Below, in pieces: positions 51,366 to 63,765 of a stretch of DNA of 64,000 nucleotides. Each line of letters opens with the position of its first letter. Position 1 is the stretch's first letter. Under the pieces are notes generated by a model. That model made no database searches. It was not told the DNA's origin and saw only the letters and a program-made list of their open reading frames with translations. This DNA comes from Bordetella parapertussis. GTDB taxonomy: Bacteria > Pseudomonadota > Gammaproteobacteria > Burkholderiales > Burkholderiaceae_D. Where the stretch lies: NCBI GenBank assembly GCA_945866125.1, contig CAMBFZ010000019.1:53-64052 (forward strand), in the 5' to 3' direction. The position numbers and the translations under genes were made by a program.

Positions 51366-51947
51366 TTAAGCGTCGGCCGGGGGAGTTGGCTCGGGAGCGG
51401 CCGCTGCTGGCGCTTCCGCTGCTGGTGCTGCTGCCGCTGGAGCCGCTTCGGCGGTGCCGGAAGTTGCTGCAGTTCGGACTTCCTTGAGTCCTTCGGTATT
51501 GCCGACGACGTTGGCGAGCAGGCCGCCAAGTTCATCATTACCGTCAAGCTTCGAGAGCAAATCGCGCAGCTCAAGACGTGCTTCAAGCAATTTCTTTAAG
51601 CGGGGAACTTGGTCAACGATGGCTTCTGGATGAAAATCAGCGAATTTTTTGAAATTCAGCTCGACCTTCAAATTACCGTCACCCTTCATCGTGTCAGCCA
51701 CGCTCATGTCCAGACGAGGAGCGAGCTTGCCCATGATTTCGTCAAAATTGTCGCGGTCAATCTCGACAAAGCGGCGGTCTTTCAGTTTGATCGGCGCCGC
51801 GGCCGGCTTGCCAAGCAAGTCAGCCATCACGCCAACGACGAGCGGCAGCTCTTTTTTCTCTACTGCATCGCCAATTTCAACGTCATATGTAATTTGAACC
51901 CGTGGTGGTCGGTTTCTTCCTACCCACTTTTGCAGACTATCAGCCAT
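51366..51947 (-). CDS. tssB: Type VI secretion sheath small subunit TssB (VipA) with an Ala/Pro-rich C-terminal tail
   Basis: MADSLQKWVGRNRPPRVQITYDVEIGDAVEKKELPLVVGVMADL is a canonical TssB N-terminus. The last ~35 aa read TAATSGTAEAAPAAAAPAAEAPAAAAPEPTPPADA. Confidence 0.9.
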   Translation of the reverse strand: MADSLQKWVGRNRPPRVQITYDVEIGDAVEKKELPLVVGVMADLLGKPAAAPIKLKDRRFVEIDRDNFDEIMGKLAPRLDMSVADTMKGDGNLKVELNFKKFADFHPEAIVDQVPRLKKLLEARLELRDLLSKLDGNDELGGLLANVVGNTEGLKEVRTAATSGTAEAAPAAAAPAAEAPAAAAPEPTPPADA

Positions 51948-52035
51948 TGATCGGTACCCCCTGAAAACAAACTGGTTTGAACAGGGTCCGATTTCCTAGA
52001 CCCGAGATTTTATTGCTTGAACGAAAGATTAACTC

Positions 52036-52047
52036 ATACTTTAGTAT
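52036..52047. promoter_or_regulatory. 12-bp palindrome ATACTTTAGTAT about 90 bp upstream of tssB
   Basis: It is a perfect ATACT-TT-AGTAT inverted repeat in the AT-rich tssB leader. Near-identical sites occur at 52782, 63688 and 63754. Confidence 0.55.
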
Positions 52048-52118
52048 TAAATCAAGGTTTTTTTAAAACTAAGTGAATATTTATTGCAAACGCCTGTTTT
52101 GAGAGCGGGCGCGCGCGC

Positions 52119-52748
52119 TCAGCAGAGTTTATTGAGCAGCTTTTCCGCCATCACGGTTGCCAGACGGCTGCGCATGCGGGTCACGCTCAATCGCTCCTGT
52201 TCCAGCTTGGCCACGCTATGAATCTGGTCGATCAGACGCAGTTTTGCCTTGTCAATCGATTGCTGCGTAAGCTTCAACTCGGCCCGTAACTCTTCGCGTC
52301 TGACGATTTTTGATGACATATCATGCAGCGCATCGGTGATGATGTGCCAGGGACTTGTCGCGCTGTCCGGCAAGCCTTCTTGTAGCTGGGAGAACAGTAG
52401 GTTGAGGTTTTCCCCCAGTTCGGCGATGGATTCGACAGAAAATGGCTGGGTGCTGTCCTCGGCAATAGACGATACGGCCAGGTCGATTAACTGGTTGGTT
52501 TCGGCAACGCGGCGGGCTAAGTCTTCAAATCCGGCCGGCATTTTGTCGAATAAATCCTCGCCCGAGATGCGCTCATCAATGCGAGTTGTGTCCAATTGCA
52601 GGGACTCATGGGATCGGGCTTCGCGCGTCTCAGGACGATGAAAGCTGCGACCAAACGGGTTGTCCTGCCTGGCTGGCGGATTGGTGCGGGCGCGAAATCC
52701 GTCTTCCGCTGATCCGTCGTCGCCGGGAGGGCTCGGTGGCTTTTGCAT
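52119..52748 (-). CDS. Hypothetical soluble protein with a disordered N-terminus and coiled-coil C-terminus
   Basis: 209-aa ORF (MQKPPSPPGDDGS...) with no TM segment and no recognised domain. It lies immediately upstream of the T6SS operon, in the same orientation. Confidence 0.5.
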   Translation of the reverse strand: MQKPPSPPGDDGSAEDGFRARTNPPARQDNPFGRSFHRPETREARSHESLQLDTTRIDERISGEDLFDKMPAGFEDLARRVAETNQLIDLAVSSIAEDSTQPFSVESIAELGENLNLLFSQLQEGLPDSATSPWHIITDALHDMSSKIVRREELRAELKLTQQSIDKAKLRLIDQIHSVAKLEQERLSVTRMRSRLATVMAEKLLNKLC

Positions 52749-52781
52749 TTTTTTTACTCCTTTGGTATCACCGGAGAAATC

Positions 52782-52793
52782 ACACTAAAGTAT
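52782..52793. promoter_or_regulatory. Palindrome variant ACACTAAAGTAT in the divergent promoter between the 52119..52748 gene and the histidine kinase
   Basis: It has one mismatch to ATACTAAAGTAT and lies ~35-45 bp upstream of the ATG at 52748. Confidence 0.5.
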
Positions 52794-52888
52794 AATTCAA
52801 AAAAATTCTGCAATGAAACTTTATTAATGTCCGGACCTGCATTGGGCCAGATAATCCGGATATAAACGATTCGCGGGGGGAGCAATTC

Positions 52889-54670
52889 GTGCCTGATAAC
52901 GCCAGCGGCAACCCGTCTTTCCTGGTACTCGCTAGCCTGAGTCTGGCCGGTATGCTGGTCGTATTTCCGCACGCGGCGCAGGCGCCGCTGTCGCCTTACG
53001 GGCTGGCTTGGCTGGGCAGTTTGATTGTGTTGGGGGCGGAGCAGTTATTTCGGAGTTGGCGCTGGTCTGAGCAGGGCCGGTTTCCAGTCGATGATTTGCT
53101 GTTGGTGCTGACTGCTGTGCTGTGGTCTATCGGCTTTGCTTTTGGCTGGCAGGTGGCGCCAGCGGGGCTGCAAATTGCGATGACGGTGGCGATTGCTGCG
53201 TTGGTGCTGGTGATGGCGGCGACGTATTACGCCAGGCGCTGGGCTTGTCTGACGGCGATTGCTTTGCTGGGTTTGCCGTGTGCACTTGTTGTGTTGGCGG
53301 CTCCGGGTAGCTTGCCGTTTATGGGAGTGGCGCTGACTATTCTGAGCGCGCTGTGCATGGTGGTGGTAGCCCGTTTCTCACGCTGGATAGATCGCGATGC
53401 GGAAGCGCGGGGCCGTGTTGCAGGTTTGCTTGAACAGGTTGCGCAGCGCAGGCTTGAGTTGCAAGAGGCCGAGATTAACCGTTCGCGTTTTCTTGCCTCG
53501 ATCAGTCACGATCTGCGTCAGCCCATGCATGCCATCAATCTCTATATCGGTAGCATCGAACGTAGTTTGCTCTCGGCACAGCAGGCCTCTGACGAGCGGC
53601 TTCGGGCGTCGGAGAGTGTGCTGCGCTTGAAGCAGAGCGTGGGCTACATGAATGATATTTTCGACAGCCTGCTCGATGTGAGTCAGCTCGATACGGGTGT
53701 GGTGCGGGTCTCGCTGGATCGCGTGCAGGCGCTGCCGTTTTGCAAGCGTTTGCTTGAACAATTTACCCGCACGGCTGAGGAACTCGGGATACGCATTGAG
53801 CTGTGTGGCGAGGGCGCGGAGCAGATTTTTCTGCAGACTGACACGCGTCTGCTAGAGCGGATTGTGCGCAATTTCCTTAGCAATGCGTTGCGCTATACGC
53901 GCAAGGGCGGCATTCGTTTGCGACTACGTGTGCGCGATGGGGTATGCCGCATCTCGGTAGTGGATACCGGTGTCGGTATTCCGATTGCGATGAAGAAAAA
54001 AATCTTTGATGAGTTTATGCGTCTGGATCAATCCGCCAGTTCGCTGGGCTCCAAGGGTGTGGGACTGGGGCTGTCCATTGCCAGAAGACTAGCCGCAAGG
54101 ATTGGCGCGCACATCTCGCTGCATAGTTATGTCGGAATGGGTTCGGTGTTTGCCGTTGATGTGCCGCTGTCGACCAAGCGGCCTTCGCTGCAAGAGCGGC
54201 ATGCGCTACGCGAAGAGCGAATTTTGCAGGCGGTACTGCCCAATATTACGATGAGCCACGCCGAGGACACGCTGCTTGTTTGTCTAGAGACGGATCCGGA
54301 TATCAGTAATGCGATGTCGCTACTGGCACCGGCTTTGGGTCTGCGTTTATTGGTGGCCACCTCAAGCGCCGCCGTCATCGCGGAGCTGGGCCGGTTGCAC
54401 CGGATTCCGGATTTACTTTTGATTGATAGTCAGCTGCCAAGCGAGACTGCACTGCAGGCCTTGGCCAGTATTAATGATGAATTCAACCTCGACATCCCGG
54501 CTATTGTGCTCAGCTCTGATATGTCGATGGAGCTGGCAACGCTGGACAGGTGCTTGCCGGTGACGGTGCTGCAAAAACCGTTTTCGTCGGATCGGCTGCA
54601 TGAGGCGATTAATGCCGGGCTGTCAAAATCCAAGGAACAGAGGGCACAACTGCGGCTGGGGGATTTTTAA
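52889..54670 (+). CDS. Membrane-bound hybrid sensor histidine kinase (HisKA, HATPase and a C-terminal receiver-like domain)
   Basis: 593-aa ORF (GTG start, uncertain) with ~5-6 N-terminal TM helices. It has the H-box SRFLASISHDLRQPMHAI, N/G boxes (RNFLSNALRYT, DTGVGIP, GVGLGLSI), and a C-terminal REC-like fold with LLLIDSQLP. Confidence 0.82.
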   Translation: MPDNASGNPSFLVLASLSLAGMLVVFPHAAQAPLSPYGLAWLGSLIVLGAEQLFRSWRWSEQGRFPVDDLLLVLTAVLWSIGFAFGWQVAPAGLQIAMTVAIAALVLVMAATYYARRWACLTAIALLGLPCALVVLAAPGSLPFMGVALTILSALCMVVVARFSRWIDRDAEARGRVAGLLEQVAQRRLELQEAEINRSRFLASISHDLRQPMHAINLYIGSIERSLLSAQQASDERLRASESVLRLKQSVGYMNDIFDSLLDVSQLDTGVVRVSLDRVQALPFCKRLLEQFTRTAEELGIRIELCGEGAEQIFLQTDTRLLERIVRNFLSNALRYTRKGGIRLRLRVRDGVCRISVVDTGVGIPIAMKKKIFDEFMRLDQSASSLGSKGVGLGLSIARRLAARIGAHISLHSYVGMGSVFAVDVPLSTKRPSLQERHALREERILQAVLPNITMSHAEDTLLVCLETDPDISNAMSLLAPALGLRLLVATSSAAVIAELGRLHRIPDLLLIDSQLPSETALQALASINDEFNLDIPAIVLSSDMSMELATLDRCLPVTVLQKPFSSDRLHEAINAGLSKSKEQRAQLRLGDF

Positions 54671-54757
54671 GCAGCACAACAAAGTCCTCTAGCGAGGCCT
54701 CGCCAAGTATGCGGCGCCGCTGACCAGGCTGTTTGGTCTGGTTAATCTGGTGCTGGC

Positions 54758-55441
54758 TACATGGCGATTGATGGCCGGTCATGCCCAAGATGCGTGCTGA
54801 AAACGGGGTAAGGCGCAATAACTGCACAAAGCGCTCGAATTGGCCATGTCGAGACATCGGTTAAAAGAAAATGGTCAAAAAATTGGACGACTGAACAGGC
54901 GTCCCAATATTAAGCAACTGGAAAAGCGTTCAGCAACGGCGTTGTCGTGGCAGTTACCACGTTGGCTCATGCTTGGCTGCTGATTGTGTATCTTCAAAAA
55001 CGCTTGCCAATCATAGCTGCTGAATTGACTGCCCTGATCGGCTGCACCACGACGGTAGATTGAGGCTGAGGACGCTACACGGCCATCAGCAGGGCGTTGA
55101 TGGCGAAATCGCGGTCGATGCGCGGTCCCATCGTCCAGCCAGTCACCTGACGCGAGAATAAATCAAAAACGGCAGACAGGAATAGCCAGCCTTCGTGCGT
55201 CCGAATATAGGTGCTGTTCTTGATCCAGGCCCGATTGGGCTGCTTCACATCAAATTGTCGCTGCAGGTGGCTCGGCGCCATGACGGCAGCTCCAGCCAAG
55301 GGTAATAGCCGCTGGGATGAAACACCATCATCTTGCAGAGACGCCGCATTTCCCGGGACGATTCAGATTTTGTCACGGCGCTGACCGCATCCAGCGCTCA
55401 AGTAGCCTGTTCGACGCGGCCATTATAAGAAAATGGCCCAA
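54758..55441 (-). mobile_element. Degraded IS3-family transposase (orfB) remnant with frameshifts, stops and an internal deletion
   Basis: Minus-strand fragments read ...RRLCKMMVFHPSGYYPWLELPS.., HLQRQFDVKQPNRAWIKNSTYIRTHEGWLFLSAVFDLFSRQVTGWTMG, ..DQGSQFSSYDWQAFLKIHNQQPSMSQRGNCHDNAVAERF.., and a decayed ...YPVFSTHLG tail. orfA is absent, as are ~85 aa between the SGYY and HLQRQF blocks. Confidence 0.8.
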
Positions 55442-55677
55442 AAACCGACCAACGTATAAGAGCTTGCGCAAAACAGTGCGTAAAATTGATTGGTGCACTT
55501 CCTTGGCTTGTAATCACTCATTATTTATTTTGTCCATGTTTAAGATGTTTTAACGACAGTTAAAATCGTGTAATGTATGGCCACTGCGAGATATGAACAA
55601 GTTTTACTGTCGACTAAGATCCAATCTAAGTAGTTATCTATCCAATAACATTGAATAATTTAAAAGAGGCGTCCGCA

Positions 55678-58548
55678 ATGTCCCAAGACTTTCAAGCCGC
55701 TAACCAGATTTCTAGTCAGCCAATTACCCGTGACGTTAGCGACAGCGGCGCCATTCTATTTATCGATGGTGACGGAAATTGGCTAGTTGGATCGACAAAT
55801 TCGGCGGTCAAGTCGTACATCGAAATTCATACAGCGACCGATGATAACGTCACCGATGCTACGTTCGGGTTGACGGCACAATCTGTCACAAAGGTAGAAA
55901 CTGGTGGTTATATTTTATATCTTGAAGATACACAGGATGGGGAGTTTTATACCGTCGAAGTGAGCGCCGATGGGGTGTTTGATTTTGATAATGTCACCTT
56001 AATGTCTTCCGATGATATTCATAATTACGAAGAAGACGAGGGTGAAGACATAGACGATTCAGGCAATATTGGTGGTGATGATTGGATCCATGATGACGGC
56101 TATTTAGATATTACCGTCGGCGCCGACGGATCTTATGAAATAACGCGTGAGGATGGTACCTCGGTCATTATTAACTACGACGGCAAACCTATCGACCACG
56201 AATGGTTGACAGACGGTGGTTATGAGCTTTTGGAAGCTGTTCCTGATCCTTCTGCGGTCGATGGTCTGGGCTTTGCGGTTTATGCGTACCATGCTGGATA
56301 TGATTTTGTGTTTACATTATGGTTAGATTCCTCCGGAAACATTACCAATATTCCTTCCAACGATAACGATAACGATAATTGGGAAGATGACGTGGTGATT
56401 AATACCGATACCGATGACGATACGGATATTAATGAAGGTGGCGATACCGATATCGTAACGGGATGGGCCGCTGATCTAAAAACATCGTATCTCCAAACTG
56501 CCCTCACCGAAGGTGGCATGGTTGAAGGCGGCATTACGCATGCCGAGGCAGTATCCCTGTTCCAGGGGCTTGCTTCTGACCTCACGTCTTCCGGCGTATC
56601 GGTTATCAGTGACGATGTAATGCAAGATCTCACGAGTATCGCCGCGCGAGCGGATGGTTTGTTTACGTCAACCAATATGCTCGGAGAAGAAAATAACTAT
56701 CTGTCCAGCGTCGTCGTTGAGCTGATCCACGGGTCTCCCGCGAACGCATTTTATACAGGGGGCGCATCACAACAAACCCAGCTTGGTAATATCGGTGATG
56801 GCACCAGCATTGCGAATTTCGAAAAATTAATTGATAAATGGTTGCTCGGAAAAGATGTGCCGCAGGCATTGACGGGAGGCGATTCGGCTAATCCGGATGG
56901 CACGGGTGCAAGCGGCAACTATAGCGTGATCGACGGCGAGATGTTCATTGATGGCGCAAGCGGTGAAGAGGTGGCGCAGCAAAATATTGGTGACTGCTAT
57001 CTCGATGCGTCCTTTATCTCCATCGCTGAGACAAACCCCGACGCTTTCAAGGCCGCTGCATCAGAAAACGCGTCGGACGGCACCGACAAAACCTGGGGTG
57101 TCCGCTTCCTGGATAACAATGGGCAGTCTTATTGGGTCACCGTCAATAATAAGCTGCCGACCCTATCCGGGGCGGCCAGTGCCACTACAGATGACCTGAT
57201 CTATAACAAGTCAACGACCACCGGTGAATTATGGCCGTCCTTGTTCGAAAAGGCCTACGTTCAAGTTAATGAGACAGGCCTGTTGAAGTCGAGCTCTGGT
57301 AGCGTTAATGCGTATTGGGCCGTTGAGGGGGGGTGGTCGGTGCCCTTGCTGCATATTGCAGGCGGCACATCCATTACGGGCTTTAGTGATTGCATGGACT
57401 ATGGCGCTGTTGAGGATTGGGTAACAGTTACGTCGCTCAATGCGAGTAACATAAATAGTAATATCCAACAGGTAATGAAAGATTTAAATGCAGGTAAGCC
57501 AGGATGGCTAGGCTCATGGTCGCAGATTCCCGGTGCGACCGGCAGCACAAATTTTGTTTCTGGTCACGCGTACTCTATTGTTGATGCGGAGCCGGATAAT
57601 CCATCCAACACCACCGTAAAAATATTTAATCCATGGGGCGTTAATGACGGTTATGGTTGGGAGTCCCCGTTCACGAAAGAAGTGTCCTTTGTCGTTGACG
57701 TTGATTCCTTAAAAAACTTTGGTGTTTTTATTCTGGACTCATCCGCGGCAGTGGTGAGCAGCACCTCCAGCATGACGCCAGCAGACGTTCATGCCTACCT
57801 TGCGGCGGGTAACGAACGGGCTAGCGTGACCGCTGGCGCATTGACAGTAGGAGATGCCTCGGACGATACCTTGGCAGGCGACGGTTTGGCTAACGTCTTA
57901 GTCGGTAAAGACGGCGATGATGCCATCGACGGTGGTGCGGGTAATGACAATTTGCTGGGTGGCGATGGCGCAGATTCGCTCATCGGTGGAGATGGTATCG
58001 ACACCGCTGTGTTCACCGGTGTGATTGCTGATTATCTGATCACGGTTGATGCGGCAGCCTGTACAGTTGTGAATGAGGCCGATTTCAAGCGCACCACCGA
58101 TAGTCTGACATCGGTAGAGAGATTGCAGTTTACCGATTCGTCGCTGGCGCTCGACACGGACGGTAACGCGGGTCAGGTTTACCGTCTCTATCAGGTGTTT
58201 GATCGCGATCCGACTGAGGGCGACACCACAGGTCTGGGCTATTGGATTGCGCAGGTCGATGGCGGGATGGACTTATCGGAAGTGGCTGCACGGTTTATCG
58301 ATTCCACTGAATTCAGCACGACGTATGGTGACAACTTAAGTAATGCCGAATTCATCACCAGCCTCTACGACAACTTTTTAAACAGAACCGCCGACCAGAG
58401 TGGCTTTGACTGGTGGGTGGCGCAGCTTAATACCAATGCAGACACTCGTGCGACGGTGTTGGCAGAGTTTTCCGACTCGGCAGAAAATGTCGCCGCGGTA
58501 GCCAGCCTGATTGTCGGCGGTATTGGATATACCGAGTTTGTAGCGTAA
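55678..58548 (+). CDS. Calpain-like (peptidase C2) cysteine protease fused to RTX calcium-binding repeats and a C-terminal DUF4214 domain
   Basis: ORF 55651..58548; the ATG at 55678 follows AAGAGG. Calpain triad contexts are QQNIGDCYLDASFISIA (Cys codon 56995-56997), VSGHAYSIVD (His 57565-57567) and VKIFNPWG (Asn 57628-57630), plus ELWPSLFEKAYVQV. Four GGxGxDxUx nonapeptides lie at ~57846-58016. The DUF4214-like tail contains VYRLYQVFDRDPTEGDTTGLGYWIAQV...FDWWVAQLN. Confidence 0.8.
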   Translation: MSQDFQAANQISSQPITRDVSDSGAILFIDGDGNWLVGSTNSAVKSYIEIHTATDDNVTDATFGLTAQSVTKVETGGYILYLEDTQDGEFYTVEVSADGVFDFDNVTLMSSDDIHNYEEDEGEDIDDSGNIGGDDWIHDDGYLDITVGADGSYEITREDGTSVIINYDGKPIDHEWLTDGGYELLEAVPDPSAVDGLGFAVYAYHAGYDFVFTLWLDSSGNITNIPSNDNDNDNWEDDVVINTDTDDDTDINEGGDTDIVTGWAADLKTSYLQTALTEGGMVEGGITHAEAVSLFQGLASDLTSSGVSVISDDVMQDLTSIAARADGLFTSTNMLGEENNYLSSVVVELIHGSPANAFYTGGASQQTQLGNIGDGTSIANFEKLIDKWLLGKDVPQALTGGDSANPDGTGASGNYSVIDGEMFIDGASGEEVAQQNIGDCYLDASFISIAETNPDAFKAAASENASDGTDKTWGVRFLDNNGQSYWVTVNNKLPTLSGAASATTDDLIYNKSTTTGELWPSLFEKAYVQVNETGLLKSSSGSVNAYWAVEGGWSVPLLHIAGGTSITGFSDCMDYGAVEDWVTVTSLNASNINSNIQQVMKDLNAGKPGWLGSWSQIPGATGSTNFVSGHAYSIVDAEPDNPSNTTVKIFNPWGVNDGYGWESPFTKEVSFVVDVDSLKNFGVFILDSSAAVVSSTSSMTPADVHAYLAAGNERASVTAGALTVGDASDDTLAGDGLANVLVGKDGDDAIDGGAGNDNLLGGDGADSLIGGDGIDTAVFTGVIADYLITVDAAACTVVNEADFKRTTDSLTSVERLQFTDSSLALDTDGNAGQVYRLYQVFDRDPTEGDTTGLGYWIAQVDGGMDLSEVAARFIDSTEFSTTYGDNLSNAEFITSLYDNFLNRTADQSGFDWWVAQLNTNADTRATVLAEFSDSAENVAAVASLIVGGIGYTEFVA

Positions 58549-58563
58549 TTCTGTAGTAAAAAG

Positions 58564-58586
58564 GGGGGCCGGCTTCGGCCCCCTTT
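58564..58586 (+). terminator. Rho-independent terminator after the calpain-like gene
   Basis: GGGGGCCG-GCTT-CGGCCCCC, an 8-bp GC stem followed by TTT. Confidence 0.65.
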
Positions 58587-58708
58587 CACGTTGCTGGGCT
58601 TTGTTCGCTGCTCGGTTAGCGGTCAAAGCGTTCTTGTTCTCCTCACTCAAATACGATCACTTAGCACTTGTTTAGGTGCTAGGTACTTGTTCGAAAGTTT
58701 TTTCTGTA

Positions 58709-59962
58709 ATGACTAGCCAAGATAAAGACGAAGCGCTCGCTGAGAATGGCGACCCAGTGGCACAACTACGTGCTGGTTTGTATCATTTAGAACAGGGTGA
58801 ACGTCAGCAGGATTTCAAGAAGGCGCTAAGTTATCTCAGAAAATCTGCAATTCAAGGAAACATCGAAGCGCAATACCACATGGGGTTGGTGCACAAGCAA
58901 GGCAAAGGCGTTGAAGCAAATCCAACGATCGCGCTGAAGTGGTTTTATATTGCTGCTGAAGCTGGGCATAAACAGGCTATTTCTTTGACCCAAAATGGCG
59001 AAACGGGCATGCTTCCCAAGCGGACGAATACCGCAAAAAATCTGTCGAAATATTTTAGTGATGCCGTGATGCTGTACAAAGCTTCAGTCGTCAAAAATAA
59101 ACCAGATTGGCAATTTAAATTGGGATGTTTGTTCGAAGCAGGATTGGGCGTAGATCAGGATTATGCCGAAGCCGCCCATTGGTACAAGTTGGCGTCCGAC
59201 CAAAAACATGACGCGGCGCATGCGGCACTAGGCAAGTTGCATTTTCATGGGCTGGGTGTTGCGAATAGTACGGCCCAAGCGGTCGATTTGTTTACCATCA
59301 GTGCGGCCAATGGGAACGCGGATGGGCAGTACCACTTGGGTTATGCCTATGAAATGGGTATTGGCGTTGAAAAAAATGTAGAAGAAGCCTATCAACTCTA
59401 TTCGCTTGCTGCTGAAAAAGAACATAAGCTCGCATTGCTGCGTTTGGGTTTGATGTTTCGTACTGGTATCGATATCAAGCCTAAGGTCAGTGAAACGGGC
59501 ATGGCGTCCAAAAAAAAATATGGACTCGCATCAAAATACGAAGAGGCGAGAGAGCCGGAAAAAGAGTGGCACTCGCAAGACTTTGAAAAATCCCATCAAT
59601 ATTTCAAAAGGTCAGCAGATAAAGGTAGCCCGGACGCGCAGTATTATCTAGGCACCTTTTATGCGCAGGGACTTGGGATTGCTCAAGATTTTAACGCTGC
59701 AGTCAAGTATTTCAGGCTGGCGGTGGCTCAGGGGCATCCAGAAGCGATGTCCAATCTGGCATTTCTGTACGCGCATGGGCAGGGACTTCTTGCCGATTAC
59801 CTTAAAGCAGCTATGTGGTACGAGGTGAGCAGACGTCTGGGCTATAAAACAATCGAAAAAAACTTGGAATTCGTTTTGAGCAAAATGACGAATGAAGAAG
59901 CGCAGGAAGCCAAAGCACTCGCTGCGCGCTGCATAGCGGAAAATTATCAAGGATACGATTAA
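58709..59962 (+). CDS. Sel1-like repeat protein
   Basis: ORF 58676..59962; probable start MTSQDKDEAL at 58709. It has multiple SLR units (AQYHMGLVHKQGKGVEANPTIALKWFYIAAEAGH, AQYYLGTFYAQGLGIAQDFNAAVKYFRLAVAQGH). No signal peptide is evident. Confidence 0.85.
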   Translation: MTSQDKDEALAENGDPVAQLRAGLYHLEQGERQQDFKKALSYLRKSAIQGNIEAQYHMGLVHKQGKGVEANPTIALKWFYIAAEAGHKQAISLTQNGETGMLPKRTNTAKNLSKYFSDAVMLYKASVVKNKPDWQFKLGCLFEAGLGVDQDYAEAAHWYKLASDQKHDAAHAALGKLHFHGLGVANSTAQAVDLFTISAANGNADGQYHLGYAYEMGIGVEKNVEEAYQLYSLAAEKEHKLALLRLGLMFRTGIDIKPKVSETGMASKKKYGLASKYEEAREPEKEWHSQDFEKSHQYFKRSADKGSPDAQYYLGTFYAQGLGIAQDFNAAVKYFRLAVAQGHPEAMSNLAFLYAHGQGLLADYLKAAMWYEVSRRLGYKTIEKNLEFVLSKMTNEEAQEAKALAARCIAENYQGYD

Positions 59963-60125: not shown

Positions 60126-60791
60126 TCACGCCTTATTCGTAAAAAGCCCCAGACGCTGCGCGACCAGCACGGCTTGGGTGCGGCTGACGACTTGTAATTC
60201 ACGGAAGATCGCCCCGACGTGAGATTTGGCGGTGATTTCGGTGATACCCAAACTGTCGGCAATCTCTCGGTTGCTATTGCCCTGACAAATCATCGACAGC
60301 ACTTGCAGCTGCCGGTCGGTCAGGGTGATGCGCTTGATGCTTGCGCTGTCGGCCGCACCGCTGCTGCTGAGCCATTCGCCGGTTTGCAGTTCACCTTCCA
60401 ACGCGCGCGATACCAGGGAGAGCATGTCTTCCATCGGCGCCCCTTTGCTGATAAAGGCCGACGATCCGGCGCCCAGACAGGCACCAACCTGTAATTCATC
60501 ATCGCTGCCGGAGACGGTGATGATGCTGATTTCCGGGCCCAGAGAAAGTACGCGCCGAATGGCGGCGAGTCCGCCTAAGCCGGGCAGGCCCAGATCGATC
60601 AGGACCCACCAGCGAATTTTTTTTGATTTTTTGAGTGCAGCTTCCAGTAAGGCGATACCGTCTTCGGCGTTGCTGCAGGATTCAACGCGTAATTCCGGAA
60701 AGCGGGTGCGTAAAGCGTCCGCCATCGCCAGGCGGATCATGGGGTGGTCGTCAACGACCAGGAAAGATTGGGCTTTATCCATTGCTGGCAT
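60126..60791 (-). CDS. NarL/FixJ (LuxR-type HTH) response regulator
   Basis: ORF 60126..60869; likely start at M27 (60791) or M30 (60782). The REC domain has FLVVDDHPMIRLAM...VLIDLGLPG. The C-terminal LuxR HTH reads LTDRQLQVLSMICQGNSNREIADSLGITEITAKSHV. Confidence 0.88.
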   Translation of the reverse strand: MPAMDKAQSFLVVDDHPMIRLAMADALRTRFPELRVESCSNAEDGIALLEAALKKSKKIRWWVLIDLGLPGLGGLAAIRRVLSLGPEISIITVSGSDDELQVGACLGAGSSAFISKGAPMEDMLSLVSRALEGELQTGEWLSSSGAADSASIKRITLTDRQLQVLSMICQGNSNREIADSLGITEITAKSHVGAIFRELQVVSRTQAVLVAQRLGLFTNKA

Positions 60792-60901: not shown

Positions 60902-61375
60902 TCAGATAACCAGACTTAAGCCCAAAAAGATCAGCGCCACCAGCGTGGCGATCAGGGGTGTGGCGCTGGCCGCGGTGTAGCGGCGTGCGTTTTGTGCGAA
61001 CAATTCGGAGGATGCTGGAAGATTAATTTTTTGCACGCCGTCGAGTATCGTTAGCTCGGCGGCAGCGAGTCCGTGCCAGTCAGCTTTGGGTATGTCAAAG
61101 CGGGTATTTGATGCGCGCTCTGGTGCCGCTGCGGGCGTGTGATGCTCCAGAAAATGGTCTTCCGGATAACCCAGCGCGACGGCCAGCCGGCACGCACAAT
61201 GCACCCGATGCGCCTCTTCAATGAAGCCTTGCGGGGCATCGGTCTCCAGGCTTTGTACCTGCTCTTCGGTGAGCCCGGCCAGCATCGCCAAAATACTGAT
61301 ACTCAGGCGGTGGTCTCGACGGGCGCGATGAATTTTTTTTGACAGCACCTGCGCGTTGGTGGTGGGGCTACTCAT
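60902..61375 (-). CDS. XRE-type helix-turn-helix protein with a C-terminal transmembrane anchor (RodZ-like architecture)
   Basis: 157-aa ORF with the N-terminal HTH IHRARRDHRLSISILAMLAGLTEEQVQSLE and the C-terminal TM ATPLIATLVALIFLGLSLVI. Its start overlaps the upstream stop (ATGA, 61372-61375). Confidence 0.65.
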   Translation of the reverse strand: MSSPTTNAQVLSKKIHRARRDHRLSISILAMLAGLTEEQVQSLETDAPQGFIEEAHRVHCACRLAVALGYPEDHFLEHHTPAAAPERASNTRFDIPKADWHGLAAAELTILDGVQKINLPASSELFAQNARRYTAASATPLIATLVALIFLGLSLVI

Positions 61376-62784
61376 GCTGCAGCTCTTTCTTTCAACGCAG
61401 CCGGTGCCAGGGGCGCGCTGGCCCTTGCCAGCCTTGCTTCATCAATCAGCGTGACGCGCACCAGAAAAAAATGTCGGTGGTCAGGCGTGTAGAGTTTTTC
61501 CAGCGCCACGGATATCCCGCCGTCACTGCGCCGCATGAGCCACGCGGTCGCTTTGTTGGTGGCAAGGATGGCATTCTCGAGTTGGGCAATTTCGGTGTCG
61601 TTGTCGGACAAAATCCGCAGCTTGTCCCATAACAGACCGGAGTTGGCATAGCGATCCATGGGCCCCAATAGCGTCGCCCAGGCATCCGACATGGAGATGA
61701 TTGCAAAATGCTGGTCGAGCAGCCCAGTGATTTCATACGCCGCATCGGCGCGAGCCTCGTTGAGCAGTTCGCGCAAATCCCCAAAATCAAAAGGTAGCGG
61801 TTCGAGCATCATGTAATGCAGTCGCTCGGTCTGAAATTCCAGGAGCATGGTGCTGATTTGCAGAATGGCGACGTGCTGATCCGGACGCTGAAACACCGCA
61901 CGTAGTTTTCCGTGGGGCCCCGGCTGCACGGTGAGAAACAGCGCCTCCAGAGTTTGCTCATCGAGTTCAGGGAAAGCCAGAAATTTGCGCGCACCGGCAT
62001 TGGCAAAAACAAGCTTGCCGTCAGAGCGGGCAATGAGCACCATGCCGGGCGATTGATACAGTGCCTGTGACGCGATGCCCAAGCCGTTTTGCAGTGCATT
62101 GGCTTGCTGTACCAGCGCGCGGGAAAGTCGGTCTGCACCTTCGGTGCGGCGCGCTACAAATAAATGCCCGAGTTCTGCCGTGATCAGCAGTTTTAAACCC
62201 AGCCAGATGACGCCGACTGCTTCGAGCAGCCATTGCCTTGGCATAGCCGCGCCAAGTGGCGCGGCAAGTAGCACGACCGTGCTCAGCAGCAGCACCGTTG
62301 CCAGGGTGCTGATGACGGAGAGGGTAGCGAGTGATTTACTGGATTCAACCGATGTTTTGGCGGTTTTGGAGGCTTCGATAGCGATGCACAAATAACTCGC
62401 GCCCAGCATGGCCACAATAATCACGGCACCATTGATAGCAGGGGCTGCGGCCGGCGCTACTTGCGCGGCAATCGCTAACACCACGGCCGCACACACGCTG
62501 AGCAAAATGTGCTGGCGCGCCGGAACCGGTGGCTGCGCCACGCTGCCGGCGAGGCACAGTGCCGAGAGTAATTCAAACCCGGCAAAGCTATTGATATCAG
62601 CCGGTAGCACGTAGAAAAACAAGAGCCATGCGGCCACTGGCTGCACCAGCCCTAGCAAAATAGCCATCCAGCCAAATTGCTCAGAGGTGGTCAGTCTTGT
62701 GTGTTCATGCCGCAGTAAGGCGGTACCGATCAGCCCTGCGCTGCAGAGTAGAAAGAAGGCGACGATGGCGGCTTGAAATTGCAT
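61372..62784 (-). CDS. Polytopic membrane protein with two cytoplasmic PAS-like domains and no recognisable output domain
   Basis: 470-aa ORF with ~6 N-terminal TM helices, then PAS-like segments (GMVLIARSDGKLVFANAGARKFL..., ITGLLDQHFAIISMSDAWATLLG...). I see no H-box, GGDEF, EAL or HTH. Confidence 0.55.
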   Translation of the reverse strand: MQFQAAIVAFFLLCSAGLIGTALLRHEHTRLTTSEQFGWMAILLGLVQPVAAWLLFFYVLPADINSFAGFELLSALCLAGSVAQPPVPARQHILLSVCAAVVLAIAAQVAPAAAPAINGAVIIVAMLGASYLCIAIEASKTAKTSVESSKSLATLSVISTLATVLLLSTVVLLAAPLGAAMPRQWLLEAVGVIWLGLKLLITAELGHLFVARRTEGADRLSRALVQQANALQNGLGIASQALYQSPGMVLIARSDGKLVFANAGARKFLAFPELDEQTLEALFLTVQPGPHGKLRAVFQRPDQHVAILQISTMLLEFQTERLHYMMLEPLPFDFGDLRELLNEARADAAYEITGLLDQHFAIISMSDAWATLLGPMDRYANSGLLWDKLRILSDNDTEIAQLENAILATNKATAWLMRRSDGGISVALEKLYTPDHRHFFLVRVTLIDEARLARASAPLAPAALKERAAA

Positions 62785-62798
62785 AAGCGGCGCGAGCG

Positions 62799-63659
62799 CT
62801 AGCGAGACGGCAAAGGCGCCGCAGAGGGCGCGGCACGCGGTTGCGGCAACGCCGTCAGGGCCGGGTCGAGCGCCGCGGCCTGCATGGTTTGCTCGGTTTC
62901 ATTGTCTTCGTCGGTCTGTAGTGGCACCGCAACCGCTTGCGCGATATTTTCAGGCGCGACGGCGGCTTGAGTAATCCGGTGCGATTGCGTGTGCTGCGCT
63001 AAGGGCGCATCAAGCGCCGGCGTGACCGGCTCCATCATCAGCAGTGCCGCCAGTAAGCCGGTTGCCGATAAGGCCAGCGCTCTGGCCGGCAAGGATATCT
63101 GCCTCAGGCGGCCACAAGCGGCGCGGACCATGCCCGACAGGCGCACTAATCTGGCATCGGGATCGATATCCCAGCGCAGCATGCGGCTTCCCAAAAACTG
63201 TATTTTTCGCTGATCTGCCTGCGGATCAAGGGCGTCAAACAAGGCTACAATCGGCAGCTGCGCACCGAGGAATTCGCCCGCTAATTTCACCATCTCGCGG
63301 AATTCACGCTCCGGCATCGCCGAGGCATTGCGTACTAGCAGTAATTGTTCGCTGCTCGTAGCGAACCTTGCTGGACGCCGCTGACGAGGACCGCTTAAGG
63401 TGTTGTCGGAGAGTGTTGCCAGTGCCTTGTTATAGCGCCGGGATGTCGCTTCGGTGACTAAGTCTGCAAACTGCTCGGGATCATAGTTAAGCACGGTAAG
63501 CCTCTCGCGCTCGTGCAGCCAACATTGCAGCACCCGGACATAACTAAGCAGCTTGCGCGAGTCTGCGCAGACGATCGCTACGTGCAGCGGATCGTCGGCC
63601 AGATAGCGGCAGACGATCGCAAAGTGCTCTTGATCTTCAGGTTGGATAATGGTCGGCAT
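62799..63659 (-). CDS. Hypothetical protein resembling a P-loop-less ExeA/GspA-type AAA fold with a TM segment
   Basis: 286-aa ORF. VAIVCADSRKLLSYV sits where a Walker A would be, and EQLLLVRNASAMP where a Walker B would be. A hydrophobic segment LALSATGLLAALLMM and an A/P-rich tail follow. Confidence 0.4.
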   Translation of the reverse strand: MPTIIQPEDQEHFAIVCRYLADDPLHVAIVCADSRKLLSYVRVLQCWLHERERLTVLNYDPEQFADLVTEATSRRYNKALATLSDNTLSGPRQRRPARFATSSEQLLLVRNASAMPEREFREMVKLAGEFLGAQLPIVALFDALDPQADQRKIQFLGSRMLRWDIDPDARLVRLSGMVRAACGRLRQISLPARALALSATGLLAALLMMEPVTPALDAPLAQHTQSHRITQAAVAPENIAQAVAVPLQTDEDNETEQTMQAAALDPALTALPQPRAAPSAAPLPSR

Positions 63660-63687
63660 TGTCGGTTTAAAAACTCACCCCAAAATT

Positions 63688-63699
63688 ATACTAAAGTAT
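63688..63699. promoter_or_regulatory. 12-bp perfect palindrome ATACTAAAGTAT about 30-40 bp upstream of the 62799..63659 operon
   Basis: Seen directly. It has the same half-sites as the tssB-upstream site at 52036. Confidence 0.55.
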
Positions 63700-63753: not shown

Positions 63754-63765
63754 ATACTTTAGAAT
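63754..63765. promoter_or_regulatory. Palindrome variant ATACTTTAGAAT, second site upstream of the same operon
   Basis: It has one mismatch to ATACTTTAGTAT and sits 66 bp (centre to centre) from the 63688 site. Confidence 0.45.

What the first reader, a model, noticed from the sequence alone, without database searches (positions are those of the whole stretch)
52036..52793. Shared 12-bp palindrome ATACT-WW-AGTAT in the T6SS promoter and the adjacent divergent promoter
A perfect palindrome ATACTTTAGTAT (52036-52047) lies about 90 bp upstream of tssB. ACACTAAAGTAT (52782-52793, one mismatch) lies in the 140-bp divergent region between the orphan gene 52119..52748 and the hybrid histidine kinase. 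The same element occurs twice more, upstream of the regulatory operon at 63688 and 63754. Four copies of a 12-mer confined to promoter-like AT-rich gaps in a 64-kb window are unlikely to be chance. They suggest one dimeric DNA-binding protein co-regulating the T6SS, its neighbour and the regulator operon. The LuxR-type response regulator (60126..60791) and the XRE-type HTH-TM protein (60902..61375) are the obvious candidates.
Basis: seen in the sequence. Interest (0 to 1): 0.66.

Follow-up and report, generated by a model that had tools for sequence, protein, structure and literature searches.

The report
Conserved operator in T6SS regulatory promoters
A 12-base inverted repeat (ATACT-WW-AGTAT) sits inside the core promoters of a type VI secretion operon, its neighbour genes and an adjacent regulator operon. 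It is kept at the same places in over 100 related bacterial loci, so it is very probably the binding site of the locus's own NarL-type response regulator, which probably acts there as a repressor.

Summary
Four copies of ATACTWWAGTAT (at most one mismatch) lie at 52036, 52782, 63688 and 63754, all intergenic, against about 0.06 expected by chance. The element is not a strict palindrome: it has 5-bp arms and a 2-bp A/T spacer.

The gene module is A-B-C-RR, a histidine kinase, a conserved coiled-coil protein (the "orphan"), then tssB. It recurs in 106 loci from Burkholderiales genomes and metagenomes (GC 28-70%). The 12-mer is kept at the same three promoters wherever the contig reaches them, while the flanks diverge (247 hits against 8-17 in shuffles).

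The site lies inside core promoters:
- at tssB, in the 17-18 bp spacer between a conserved CTTGA (-35) and TAGTAT (-10);
- at the regulator operon, overlapping a TATAAT that sits 7 nt before a mostly leaderless ATG;
- at the divergent kinase and orphan promoters, overlapping TATAAT and TATACT.

This geometry fits repression and autorepression.

The NarL/LuxR-type response regulator is the best candidate binder. Its recognition helix is invariant, and the site shares CT-AA-AG with NarL 7-2-7 and DosR boxes. One lineage keeps all three sites but has lost the HTH of the rival protein C.

Binding and the direction of regulation are inferred, not shown. I found no prior description of the element. 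It is a new member of a known kind.

The parts
52036..52047 (.). Site X: 12-mer ATACTTTAGTAT (ATACTAAAGTAT on the gene strand) upstream of tssB
   Evidence: It is conserved in every related locus that reaches tssB, across 56 distinct flanking sequences.
52050..52055 (-). Putative -35 hexamer TTGATT of the tssB promoter, 2 nt upstream of site X, preceded by an A-tract
   Evidence: CTTG(A/C) sits at a fixed offset from the 12-mer in 55 of 56 distinct X sequences. This is inference from conservation. The tool's consensus scan did not call a promoter here.
52026..52031 (-). Putative -10 hexamer TAATCT of the tssB promoter (18-bp spacer holding site X). Most relatives have TAGTAT here, within a conserved TTAGTATTG
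   Evidence: Inference from conservation; the scan did not call it.
52782..52793 (.). Site Y: 12-mer ACACTAAAGTAT (ATACTTTAGTGT on the minus strand) in the divergent gap between the coiled-coil gene and the histidine kinase gene
   Evidence: The same one-mismatch variant (AGTGT arm) is kept in most relatives, inside an invariant GTATTATACTTTAGTGTGA in the non-AT-rich lineages.
52789..52794 (-). Putative -10 TATACT for the coiled-coil ('orphan') gene, formed by a T plus the left arm of site Y
   Evidence: The preceding T is invariant. AT-rich relatives have a perfect TTGACA-N16-TATACT. Inference.
52791..52796 (+). Putative -10 TATAAT for the hybrid histidine kinase gene, overlapping the right arm of site Y
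   Evidence: The ATT flank is invariant in non-AT-rich relatives. Inference.
63688..63699 (.). Site Z1: 12-mer ATACTAAAGTAT (ATACTTTAGTAT on the gene strand) upstream of the A-B-C-RR operon
   Evidence: It is conserved upstream of gene A in all loci that reach that far and is identical in the close relative L113.
63685..63690 (-). Putative -10 TATAAT of the A-B-C-RR operon, overlapping the right arm of site Z1
   Evidence: In 15 of 21 relatives the ATG of A lies exactly 10 nt after the 12-mer (TATAAT/TATACT-N7-ATG, with no Shine-Dalgarno), implying a leaderless mRNA. The window has 28 nt instead.
63754..63765 (.). Site Z2: second, one-mismatch copy ATACTTTAGAAT, 66 bp upstream of Z1
   Evidence: It is kept exactly in the close relative L113 while nearby bases differ. 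It is not found in more distant relatives at one mismatch or fewer.
51366..51947 (-). tssB (VipA), first gene of the long T6SS operon
   Evidence: Pfam T6SS_VipA, E = 3e-53. Downstream genes are VipB, Hcp, TssE, TssF, TssG and ClpV.
52119..52748 (-). Conserved 209-aa protein (the 'orphan'): disordered N-terminus followed by a long helix
   Evidence: 60 homologues. AF2 model. No Pfam, PDB or fold match.
52889..54670 (+). Membrane hybrid histidine kinase (HisKA, HATPase_c, receiver; no Hpt domain found)
60126..60791 (-). NarL/LuxR-type response regulator, the proposed binder of the 12-mer
   Evidence: Pfam Response_reg + GerE. Best NCBIfam matches ErdR and NarL, both below cut-off. PDB matches NarL, VraR, LiaR and DosR. 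The recognition helix is invariant in relatives.
60902..61375 (-). Protein C: weak Cro/C1-type HTH (HTH_25/HTH_19-like) with a C-terminal transmembrane anchor; the rival candidate
61372..62784 (-). Protein B: 470-aa multi-pass membrane protein, no known domain
62799..63659 (-). Protein A: 286 aa, no known domain, first gene of the regulator operon

Best explanation
The 12-mer ATACT-WW-AGTAT is the operator of a self-contained control module for this type VI secretion system. A dimer of the locus-encoded NarL/LuxR-type response regulator (60126-60791) most likely binds it. The adjacent histidine kinase (52889-54670) probably phosphorylates that regulator.

The site lies inside core promoters in every case:
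- in the -35/-10 spacer of the tssB promoter;
- over the -10 hexamer of the A-B-C-RR operon;
- over the two face-to-face -10 hexamers of the divergent kinase and coiled-coil-gene promoters.

A bound regulator would therefore exclude RNA polymerase. It would repress the T6SS operon, the coiled-coil gene and the kinase gene, and it would autorepress its own operon. A signal that lowers the DNA-binding form of the regulator would de-repress all four units together.

What is shown: the sites exist, they are non-random, they are conserved in position and sequence across very divergent relatives, and they overlap conserved promoter-like hexamers.

What is inferred: which protein binds, that binding represses, and which phosphorylation state binds.
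For: Non-randomness: four sites in the window against 0.06-0.07 expected.

Footprint: in 26 genome loci and 80 metagenome loci carrying the same module (GC 28-70%; orphan identity down to 37%, RR down to 52%), the 12-mer is present at the same three positions wherever the contig reaches them. There are 247 hits with at most one mismatch in 1.09 Mb, against 8-17 in local-composition shuffles, and almost none lie elsewhere.

Trans-acting factor: where the regulator operon is unlinked from the T6SS (L049 versus L017 and L025), both parts keep their sites.

Promoter geometry:
- tssB: invariant CTTG(A/C)-N4/5-12-mer-N2/3-TTAGTATTG, which reads as -35/17-18 bp/-10.
- Regulator operon: TATAAT-N7-ATG, leaderless in 15 of 21 loci, with TAT shared with the 12-mer.
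- Coiled-coil gene: TTGACA-N16-TATACT in AT-rich relatives.

RR as the binder:
- It is the only protein of the module with a family-level DNA-binding domain in all lineages.
- Its HTH, including ITAKSHVG, is invariant in 24 loci.
- The site has the inverted-repeat, 2-bp-spacer layout of NarL 7-2-7 sites (TACCCCTAAAGGGGTA, PMC4549865). It has the same ACTAAAGT core as the DosR box (TTGGGGACTAAAGTCCCTAA, PMC5999986).
- DosR K182 contacts the AG of that core, and the equivalent Lys is kept in this RR.
- The L095/L111 lineage has three perfect sites and an intact RR, but its protein C lacks the HTH.

Precedents:
- NarL-P represses frdA through a 7-2-7 site at -4/+6.
- The hybrid kinase AtsR with AtsT represses T6SS-1 in Burkholderia cenocepacia (PMC10482370, PMC5295037).
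Against: - No binding or expression data exist, and all promoter assignments are inferred.
- The tool's sigma-70 scan found no promoter at its 9-of-12 threshold in either window region.
- At tssB a second conserved -10-like box (TAAAAT/TAAATT/CAACAT, 22-23 nt downstream of the site) would put the 12-mer at about -41, a class II activator position.
- The argument from loss of C's HTH rests on a single lineage.
- A regulator encoded elsewhere in the genome cannot be excluded, because no whole genome could be scanned.
- The kinase is a hybrid without a visible Hpt partner, so the phosphotransfer route to the RR is unproven.
Confidence: 0.6

Rival explanations
1. The same site and the same response regulator, but with dual action. 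RR~P activates tssB from a class II position (site centred near -41 relative to a downstream promoter) and represses only its own operon and the divergent pair.
For: A -10-like box (TAAAAT in the window; TAAATT, TAATAT or CAACAT in relatives) lies 22-23 nt after the 12-mer in most non-AT-rich lineages. Many NarL-family regulators, DosR among them, are activators. A start there would place a stem-loop at the 5' end of the mRNA.
Against: The box is absent in the AT-rich lineages, where a second 12-mer or the Shine-Dalgarno follows within about 20 nt. In the close relative L114, two of its few substitutions destroy the box (ACAAAG), while the CTTGA/12-mer/TTAATCT block is unchanged. The invariant CTTG 4-5 nt upstream of the site has no role in this model.
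Confidence: 0.2
2. The binder is protein C (60902-61375), a membrane-anchored Cro/C1-type HTH protein, and the response regulator acts elsewhere.
For: The C family gives weak but recurrent matches: HTH_25 in 11 of 13 members, HTH_19 in 9 of 13 (best E = 2.8e-6), and profile hits to SinR, C.BclI and 434 Cro at E = 0.02-0.9. Such proteins bind short palindromes as dimers. C is encoded in the operon that carries the site.
Against: The residues at the start of its putative recognition helix vary (T/S/N/A/G/K, D/E, A/Q/T/V/I), although the DNA site is invariant. The best family match, HTH_25, is the RodZ type, and as far as I recall that HTH binds protein rather than DNA. The L095/L111 lineage keeps three perfect sites but only the C-terminal membrane part of C. 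Membrane tethering is awkward for a repressor of three promoters.
Confidence: 0.08
3. The site is bound by a protein outside the candidates: a regulator encoded elsewhere in the genome, or the conserved coiled-coil 'orphan' protein.
For: Only about 20 kb per genome could be inspected. The coiled-coil protein co-occurs with sites X and Y in all loci and has a basic, highly conserved C-terminus.
Against: The site precedes the RR operon even when that operon is unlinked from the T6SS (L049), which is the signature of autoregulation. The coiled-coil protein has no recognisable DNA-binding fold. As far as I recall, the motif matches no common global-regulator consensus such as Fur, FNR, CRP, LexA, IHF or the LysR T-N11-A box.
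Confidence: 0.08
4. There is no dedicated factor. The 12-mer is conserved because it is itself two overlapping, oppositely oriented -10-like hexamers (TATACT on each strand), that is, a symmetric promoter core.
For: With its flanks the element reads TATACT, TATAAT or TAGTAT. At site Y it does serve divergent genes.
Against: At X and Z there is no divergent gene, yet both arms and the A/T centre are invariant. At X the left arm is preceded by C, A or G rather than T, and the element lies in the spacer rather than at -10. -10 hexamers are normally far less conserved than this across GC 28-70%.
Confidence: 0.04

Closest known systems
NarL 7-2-7 sites and NarL-mediated repression (E. coli frdA)
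   Same: The regulator is of the same family (REC + GerE HTH; NarL is the best full-length PDB hit). Both sites are inverted half-sites separated by 2 bp with inner CT-AA-AG: TACCCCT-AA-AGGGGTA against ATACT-AA-AGTAT. NarL represses by sitting on the core promoter at -4/+6 (PMC4549865).
   Different: The outer half-site bases differ (ATA against TACCC). The regulated function is a T6SS. This RR scores far below the NarL equivalog cut-off (87 against 250 bits), so it is not NarL.
DosR/DevR box of Mycobacterium tuberculosis
   Same: The central 8 bp, ACTAAAGT/ACTTTAGT, are identical within a palindrome (TTGGGGACTAAAGTCCCTAA). The recognition-helix lysine that contacts the AG (DosR K182) is conserved in this RR (PMC5999986).
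   Different: DosR needs GGG outside the core, its box is 20 bp long and it activates (the last point from my own knowledge). Here the flanks are ATA and the positions suggest repression.
AtsR/AtsT of Burkholderia cenocepacia
   Same: Both are in the order Burkholderiales. Both have a membrane hybrid sensor kinase without an Hpt domain plus a cytosolic response regulator, and AtsR/AtsT negatively controls a T6SS (PMC10482370, PMC5295037, PMC6612558).
   Different: Orthology could not be tested because no AtsR or AtsT sequence was available. As far as I recall, atsR is not linked to the T6SS-1 cluster and no operator has been defined for AtsT. Here the system is T6SS-linked, comes with the genes A, B, C and the coiled-coil gene, and has a defined candidate operator.
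Cro/C1 (XRE) repressor operators, such as controller C-protein boxes
   Same: Short palindromic operators overlapping core promoters, bound by HTH dimers. The locus encodes a weak Cro/C1-type HTH protein.
   Different: That protein is membrane-anchored, variable in its recognition helix, and lacks the HTH in one lineage that keeps the sites.

Membership tests
NarL/FixJ (LuxR-type) response regulator: the proposed binder | N-terminal receiver domain with the acidic pocket and phospho-acceptor Asp, plus a conserved Ser/Thr and Lys | tested here: met
   Pfam Response_reg. DDHP, the IDLGLPG Asp, ISG and FISK are invariant in 24 orthologues.
NarL/FixJ (LuxR-type) response regulator: the proposed binder | C-terminal GerE/LuxR four-helix HTH | tested here: met
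   Pfam GerE, E = 1.1e-16. PDB matches to the LiaR, VraR, NarL, GerE and DosR DNA-binding domains.
NarL/FixJ (LuxR-type) response regulator: the proposed binder | Binds inverted half-sites as a dimer (7-2-7-like layout) | tested here: inconclusive
   The DNA element has that layout and shares CT-AA-AG with NarL and DosR sites. Binding itself was not tested.
NarL/FixJ (LuxR-type) response regulator: the proposed binder | Physical binding of this RR to the 12-mer | not testable with these tools
   Needs EMSA, footprinting or DAP-seq.
Repressor operator overlapping a sigma-70 core promoter | The site lies between -35 and +1 of the regulated promoter | tested here: inconclusive
   Conserved hexamers at fixed offsets support it: CTTGA/TAGTAT at X, TATAAT-N7-ATG at Z, TTGACA-N16-TATACT at Y. 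The consensus scan called no promoter in the window, and no start sites are mapped.
Class II activator site (centred near -41.5) | The site abuts or overlaps -35 of a promoter whose -10 lies about 22 nt downstream | tested here: not met
   It is impossible at Z, where the ATG lies 10 nt after the site, and at the orphan promoter, where the SD lies about 25 nt after the site. It is possible only at X, and there the downstream box is not universal.
AtsR/AtsT T6SS-repressing phosphorelay | Hybrid kinase with a receiver but no Hpt, paired with a cytosolic RR | tested here: met
   HisKA + HATPase_c + Response_reg only. The RR lies nearby. The L111 lineage has a plain kinase, consistent with direct His-to-RR transfer.
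AtsR/AtsT T6SS-repressing phosphorelay | Sequence orthology to AtsR (BCAM0379) and AtsT (BCAM0381) | not tested
Cro/C1 (XRE) HTH protein: protein C | Significant match to a Cro/C1-type HTH family | tested here: inconclusive
   The window protein scores below threshold (HTH_25 E = 0.07). 11 of 13 family members give weak hits, best HTH_19 at 2.8e-6. PDB profile hits are at E = 0.02-1.
Invertible DNA switch (sites X and Y as inverted repeats flanking the orphan gene) | A site-specific recombinase nearby, and both orientations seen among relatives | tested here: not met
   No recombinase was found in the module. The orientation is the same in all loci examined.
Dispersed repeat, MITE or REP element | Extended similarity beyond the core between copies | tested here: not met
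   The flanks of the four copies are unrelated. Only the 12-mer is shared.

The most novel reading that the evidence does not exclude
The 12-mer may be a 'promoter-as-operator' design. Its arms read as TATACT, TATAAT or TAGTAT, so they double as -10 hexamers, and RNA polymerase and the response-regulator dimer would compete for literally the same bases at four transcription units. Together with a mostly leaderless, autorepressed regulator operon, this would form a compact all-or-none switch for T6SS firing. The switch is specific to a large, uncultured clade of planktonic Burkholderiales. The dual constraint would explain why the element is invariant from 28% to 70% GC. The module's unknown proteins (A, B, membrane-anchored C and the coiled-coil protein) would be new signalling parts of that switch.
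Probability: 0.3. Interest if true: 0.55.

Novelty: new member of a known kind. Interest (0 to 1): 0.45.

Why it matters
The finding gives a concrete, testable cis-element and a named candidate regulator for a T6SS found in many uncultured freshwater and marine Burkholderiales, where nothing is known about T6SS control. It defines a small regulon: the T6SS operon, the coiled-coil gene, the kinase gene and the A-B-C-RR operon. It predicts repression with negative autoregulation and supplies promoter architecture for reporter design. It also flags four conserved proteins of unknown function as parts of the control module. Conceptually it is a standard two-component operator, so its value lies in annotation and experimental entry rather than in a new principle.

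Tried and rejected
- **Chance or composition artefact.** Rejected by shuffles of the whole window, of the intergenic segments only, and of the related loci.
- **Dispersed repeat.** Rejected because the flanks of the four copies are unrelated.
- **Invertible segment between sites X and Y.** No recombinase is present, and the orientation is the same in all loci.
- **RNA element.** A 5-bp stem with a 2-nt loop cannot fold. Rfam gave only a sub-threshold eukaryotic SmY hit.
- **Sigma-54 promoter at tssB.** By eye, no GG-N10-GC match is aligned with the conserved TTGC.
- **Known global-regulator boxes.** Fur, FNR, CRP, LexA, IHF and LysR T-N11-A / ATAC-N7-GTAT do not fit. This comparison is from memory, not a database test.
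- **Literature search for the motif string.** It found only incidental primer matches.
- **Primary AtsR/AtsT papers.** They are not held, so orthology could not be tested.
- **Homologues of protein A and protein C.** The word-indexed protein search found only 2 and 4 close homologues. Family alignments were therefore built from the fetched loci instead.
- **Fold search for the coiled-coil protein.** It gave no meaningful match.
- **The tssB leader stem-loop.** It shows some compensatory changes but is not better than shuffles in the window.
- **P. aeruginosa HT-SELEX atlas.** It holds nothing on ErdR.
Full report
**Observation.** The window holds exactly four matches to ATACTWWAGTAT with at most one mismatch:
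- 52036-52047, ATACTTTAGTAT
- 52782-52793, ACACTAAAGTAT
- 63688-63699, ATACTAAAGTAT
- 63754-63765, ATACTTTAGAAT

Dinucleotide shuffles of the window expect 0.06. Shuffling only the 6.2 kb of intergenic DNA, segment by segment, expects 0.069, and no shuffle in 1000 reached 3. Relaxing to two mismatches adds only two hits, both inside genes. The element is not a strict palindrome. It has perfect 5-bp arms (ATACT/AGTAT) around a 2-bp A/T centre. In relatives the centre is TT, AA or TA and never AT.

**Gene context.**
- tssB (VipA) is 51366-51947 on the minus strand and heads a long T6SS operon.
- The 'orphan' 52119-52748 has 60 homologues at 43-99% identity, so it is not an orphan. Its model has a disordered N-terminus followed by a 76-residue helix, with no known fold.
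- 52889-54670 is a membrane hybrid histidine kinase with HisKA, HATPase_c and a receiver, and no Hpt.
- 54700-59962 holds an IS3 remnant, a calpain/RTX/DUF4214 gene and a Sel1 gene.
- On the minus strand, 63659-60126 is an operon of A (286 aa), B (470 aa, membrane), C (157 aa) and a response regulator with Response_reg + GerE domains.
- The regulator's best PDB matches are NarL, VraR, LiaR and DosR.

**Comparative evidence.** An alignment of the 'orphan' family retrieved 26 loci from species-representative genomes. These are Oxalobacteraceae and Burkholderiaceae MAGs and isolates, plus marine TMED betaproteobacteria. An alignment of the regulator retrieved 80 metagenome loci.
- Nearly all loci show the same module: [site Z] A-B-C-RR, a convergent kinase, [site Y], the orphan gene, [site X], tssB, tssC. 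The window differs by a 5.4-kb insertion between the kinase and the regulator.
- The 12-mer is present at X, Y and Z in every locus long enough to include those positions. GC ranges from 28% to 70%. Protein identity falls to 37% for the orphan and 52% for the RR.
- Over 1.09 Mb there are 247 hits with at most one mismatch (157 exact), against 8-17 in shuffles that keep 100-bp local composition. Almost none fall outside X, Y and Z.
- Site Y keeps the same asymmetric variant (AGTGT, or AGTCT in some high-GC lineages) in most loci.
- AT-rich marine lineages carry two sites at X (23 bp apart) and two at Y (34 bp apart).
- In lineages where the regulator operon is unlinked (L049) from the kinase-orphan-tssB block (L017, L025), each part keeps its sites. 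That is what a trans-acting, autoregulated factor predicts.
- In close relatives of the window organism, all four sites are identical while neighbouring bases have changed, including the one-mismatch site at 63754.

**Anatomy relative to promoters** (inferred from conservation; coordinates in 'parts').
- *tssB.* All lineages share an A/T tract, an invariant CTTG(A/C), 4-5 nt, the 12-mer, 2-3 nt, then TTAGTATTG (TTAATCT in the window; AATAAT/TAATAA in AT-rich lineages). This reads as -35 TTGAYN, a 17-18 bp spacer filled by the 12-mer, and -10 TAGTAT. TTAGTAT is also a third half-site.
- *Regulator operon.* The 12-mer is followed by AAT or ACT, giving TATAAT or TATACT. In 15 of 21 loci the ATG of A lies exactly 10 nt after the 12-mer with no Shine-Dalgarno. 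This implies a leaderless mRNA whose -10 shares three bases with the site. The N-terminus of A is conserved from that ATG, so the start codon is real.
- *Divergent gap.* An invariant T before the 12-mer gives TATACT towards the orphan. AT-rich relatives show TTGACA-N16-TATACT. The opposite strand reads ACACTAAAGTATAAT, which is TATAAT towards the kinase.
- The simple consensus scanner found no promoter at its threshold in the window. These assignments therefore rest on conserved spacing, not on scores.
- A protein on the 12-mer would overlap RNA polymerase contacts at all four units, which is the geometry of repression and autorepression.
- The main alternative at tssB is a conserved -10-like box 22-23 nt downstream, which would put the site near -41. 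That box is missing in AT-rich lineages and is mutated in the close relative L114.

**Which protein binds.**
- The regulator's HTH is essentially invariant in 24 loci (LT[DE]RQxQVLSM...EITAKSHVGGIF), matching an invariant DNA target.
- The site has the inverted-repeat, 2-bp-spacer layout that NarL prefers (7-2-7, TACCCCTAAAGGGGTA). NarL-P represses frdA from such a site at -4/+6 (PMC4549865).
- Its central ACTAAAGT is identical to the centre of the DosR consensus TTGGGGACTAAAGTCCCTAA. There K182 contacts the AG (PMC5999986), and the equivalent lysine is invariant here.
- Protein C does look like a Cro/C1-type HTH with a C-terminal membrane anchor: HTH_25 in 11 of 13 family members, HTH_19 in 9 of 13 (best 2.8e-6), and profile hits to SinR, C.BclI and 434 Cro.
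- However, the first residues of C's putative recognition helix vary. Its best family, HTH_25, is the RodZ type.
- In the L095/L111 lineage C is reduced to its membrane part without any HTH. That lineage still keeps three perfect sites, an intact RR and a plain, non-hybrid kinase.
- In that lineage the RR is the only protein of the module with a recognisable DNA-binding domain.
- I therefore favour the RR at about 0.7 and C at about 0.1, with the rest going to an unlinked factor or the coiled-coil protein.

**Comparison with the known.**
- The element works like a NarL-family operator, and the regulator passes the family's domain tests. It is not NarL, ErdR or any curated equivalog, since all scores are far below the cut-offs.
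- The nearest functional analogue is AtsR/AtsT of Burkholderia cenocepacia, a hybrid kinase and response regulator that repress T6SS-1 (PMC10482370, PMC5295037, PMC6612558). Orthology could not be tested because the sequences and primary papers were unavailable.
- Full-text searches for the motif string and for NarL-type T6SS regulators found no description of this site or module.

**Verdict.**
- The target set also includes the kinase gene.
- The 'orphan' is a conserved module member.
- The likely binder is the response regulator rather than the HTH-TM protein.
- The geometry points to repression with negative autoregulation.

It is a new member of a known kind: a two-component-system operator. 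The evidence is solid and directly testable, but conceptually it is ordinary. What remains inferred is binding, the direction of regulation, the active phosphorylation state and the transcription starts.

Noticed in passing
window 54700-59962: IS3-family transposase fragments (54700-55400, minus strand), a calpain-like/RTX/DUF4214 protein gene (55651-58548) and a Sel1-repeat gene (58676-59962) form a 5.4-kb insertion between the kinase and the regulator. In almost all related loci those two genes are adjacent. Sel1 homologues lie elsewhere, upstream of site Z, in the high-GC relatives.
   Followed up: partly
window 52119-52748: The 'orphan' gene is a conserved family (60 homologues), always found between sites Y and X. 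It is predicted to have a disordered N-terminus and a 76-residue helix with a near-invariant basic C-terminus (RMRSRLAxVMADKLLNKLR). It has no Pfam, PDB or fold match, and its function is unknown.
   Followed up: partly
L008 4789-4813 and equivalents; window 63659-63699: Gene A appears leaderless in most relatives (TATAAT/TATACT-N7-ATG, no Shine-Dalgarno). The window lineage instead has a 28-nt gap without an obvious Shine-Dalgarno.
   Followed up: partly
L029, L030, L031, L069, L077, L080, L090, L091, L098-L105 (GC 28-37%): AT-rich marine lineages carry duplicated sites at X (23 bp apart) and Y (34 bp apart). The three examined at site Z (L029-L031) also have an extra ParA/MinD-like ATPase gene (Walker A KGGVGKS) as the first gene after that site.
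   Followed up: no
L111 7600-9700 (same in L095): This lineage has a plain histidine kinase without a receiver domain and a truncated protein C without the HTH. The divergent start codons of the kinase and the orphan gene appear to share a CATG, with site Y lying inside the first codons of the kinase reading frame.
   Followed up: partly
window 51983-52006 (minus strand); tssB leaders of relatives: A stem-loop precedes the tssB Shine-Dalgarno. It differs in sequence between lineages and shows some compensatory changes (3 of 6 pairs). In the window the fold is no better than shuffles (z = -0.27), and an alternative pairing with the Shine-Dalgarno is predicted.
   Followed up: partly
window 52102-52120: A GC-rich palindrome, GAGCGGGCGCGCGCGCTC, lies immediately after the stop codon of the coiled-coil gene. 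It has no T-run, so it is at best a weak terminator between that gene and the tssB promoter.
   Followed up: no
window 60902-61375: Protein C resembles RodZ in layout: an N-terminal HTH_25-like domain, a linker and a single transmembrane helix at the C-terminus. It may be a membrane scaffold rather than a DNA-binding regulator.
   Followed up: partly
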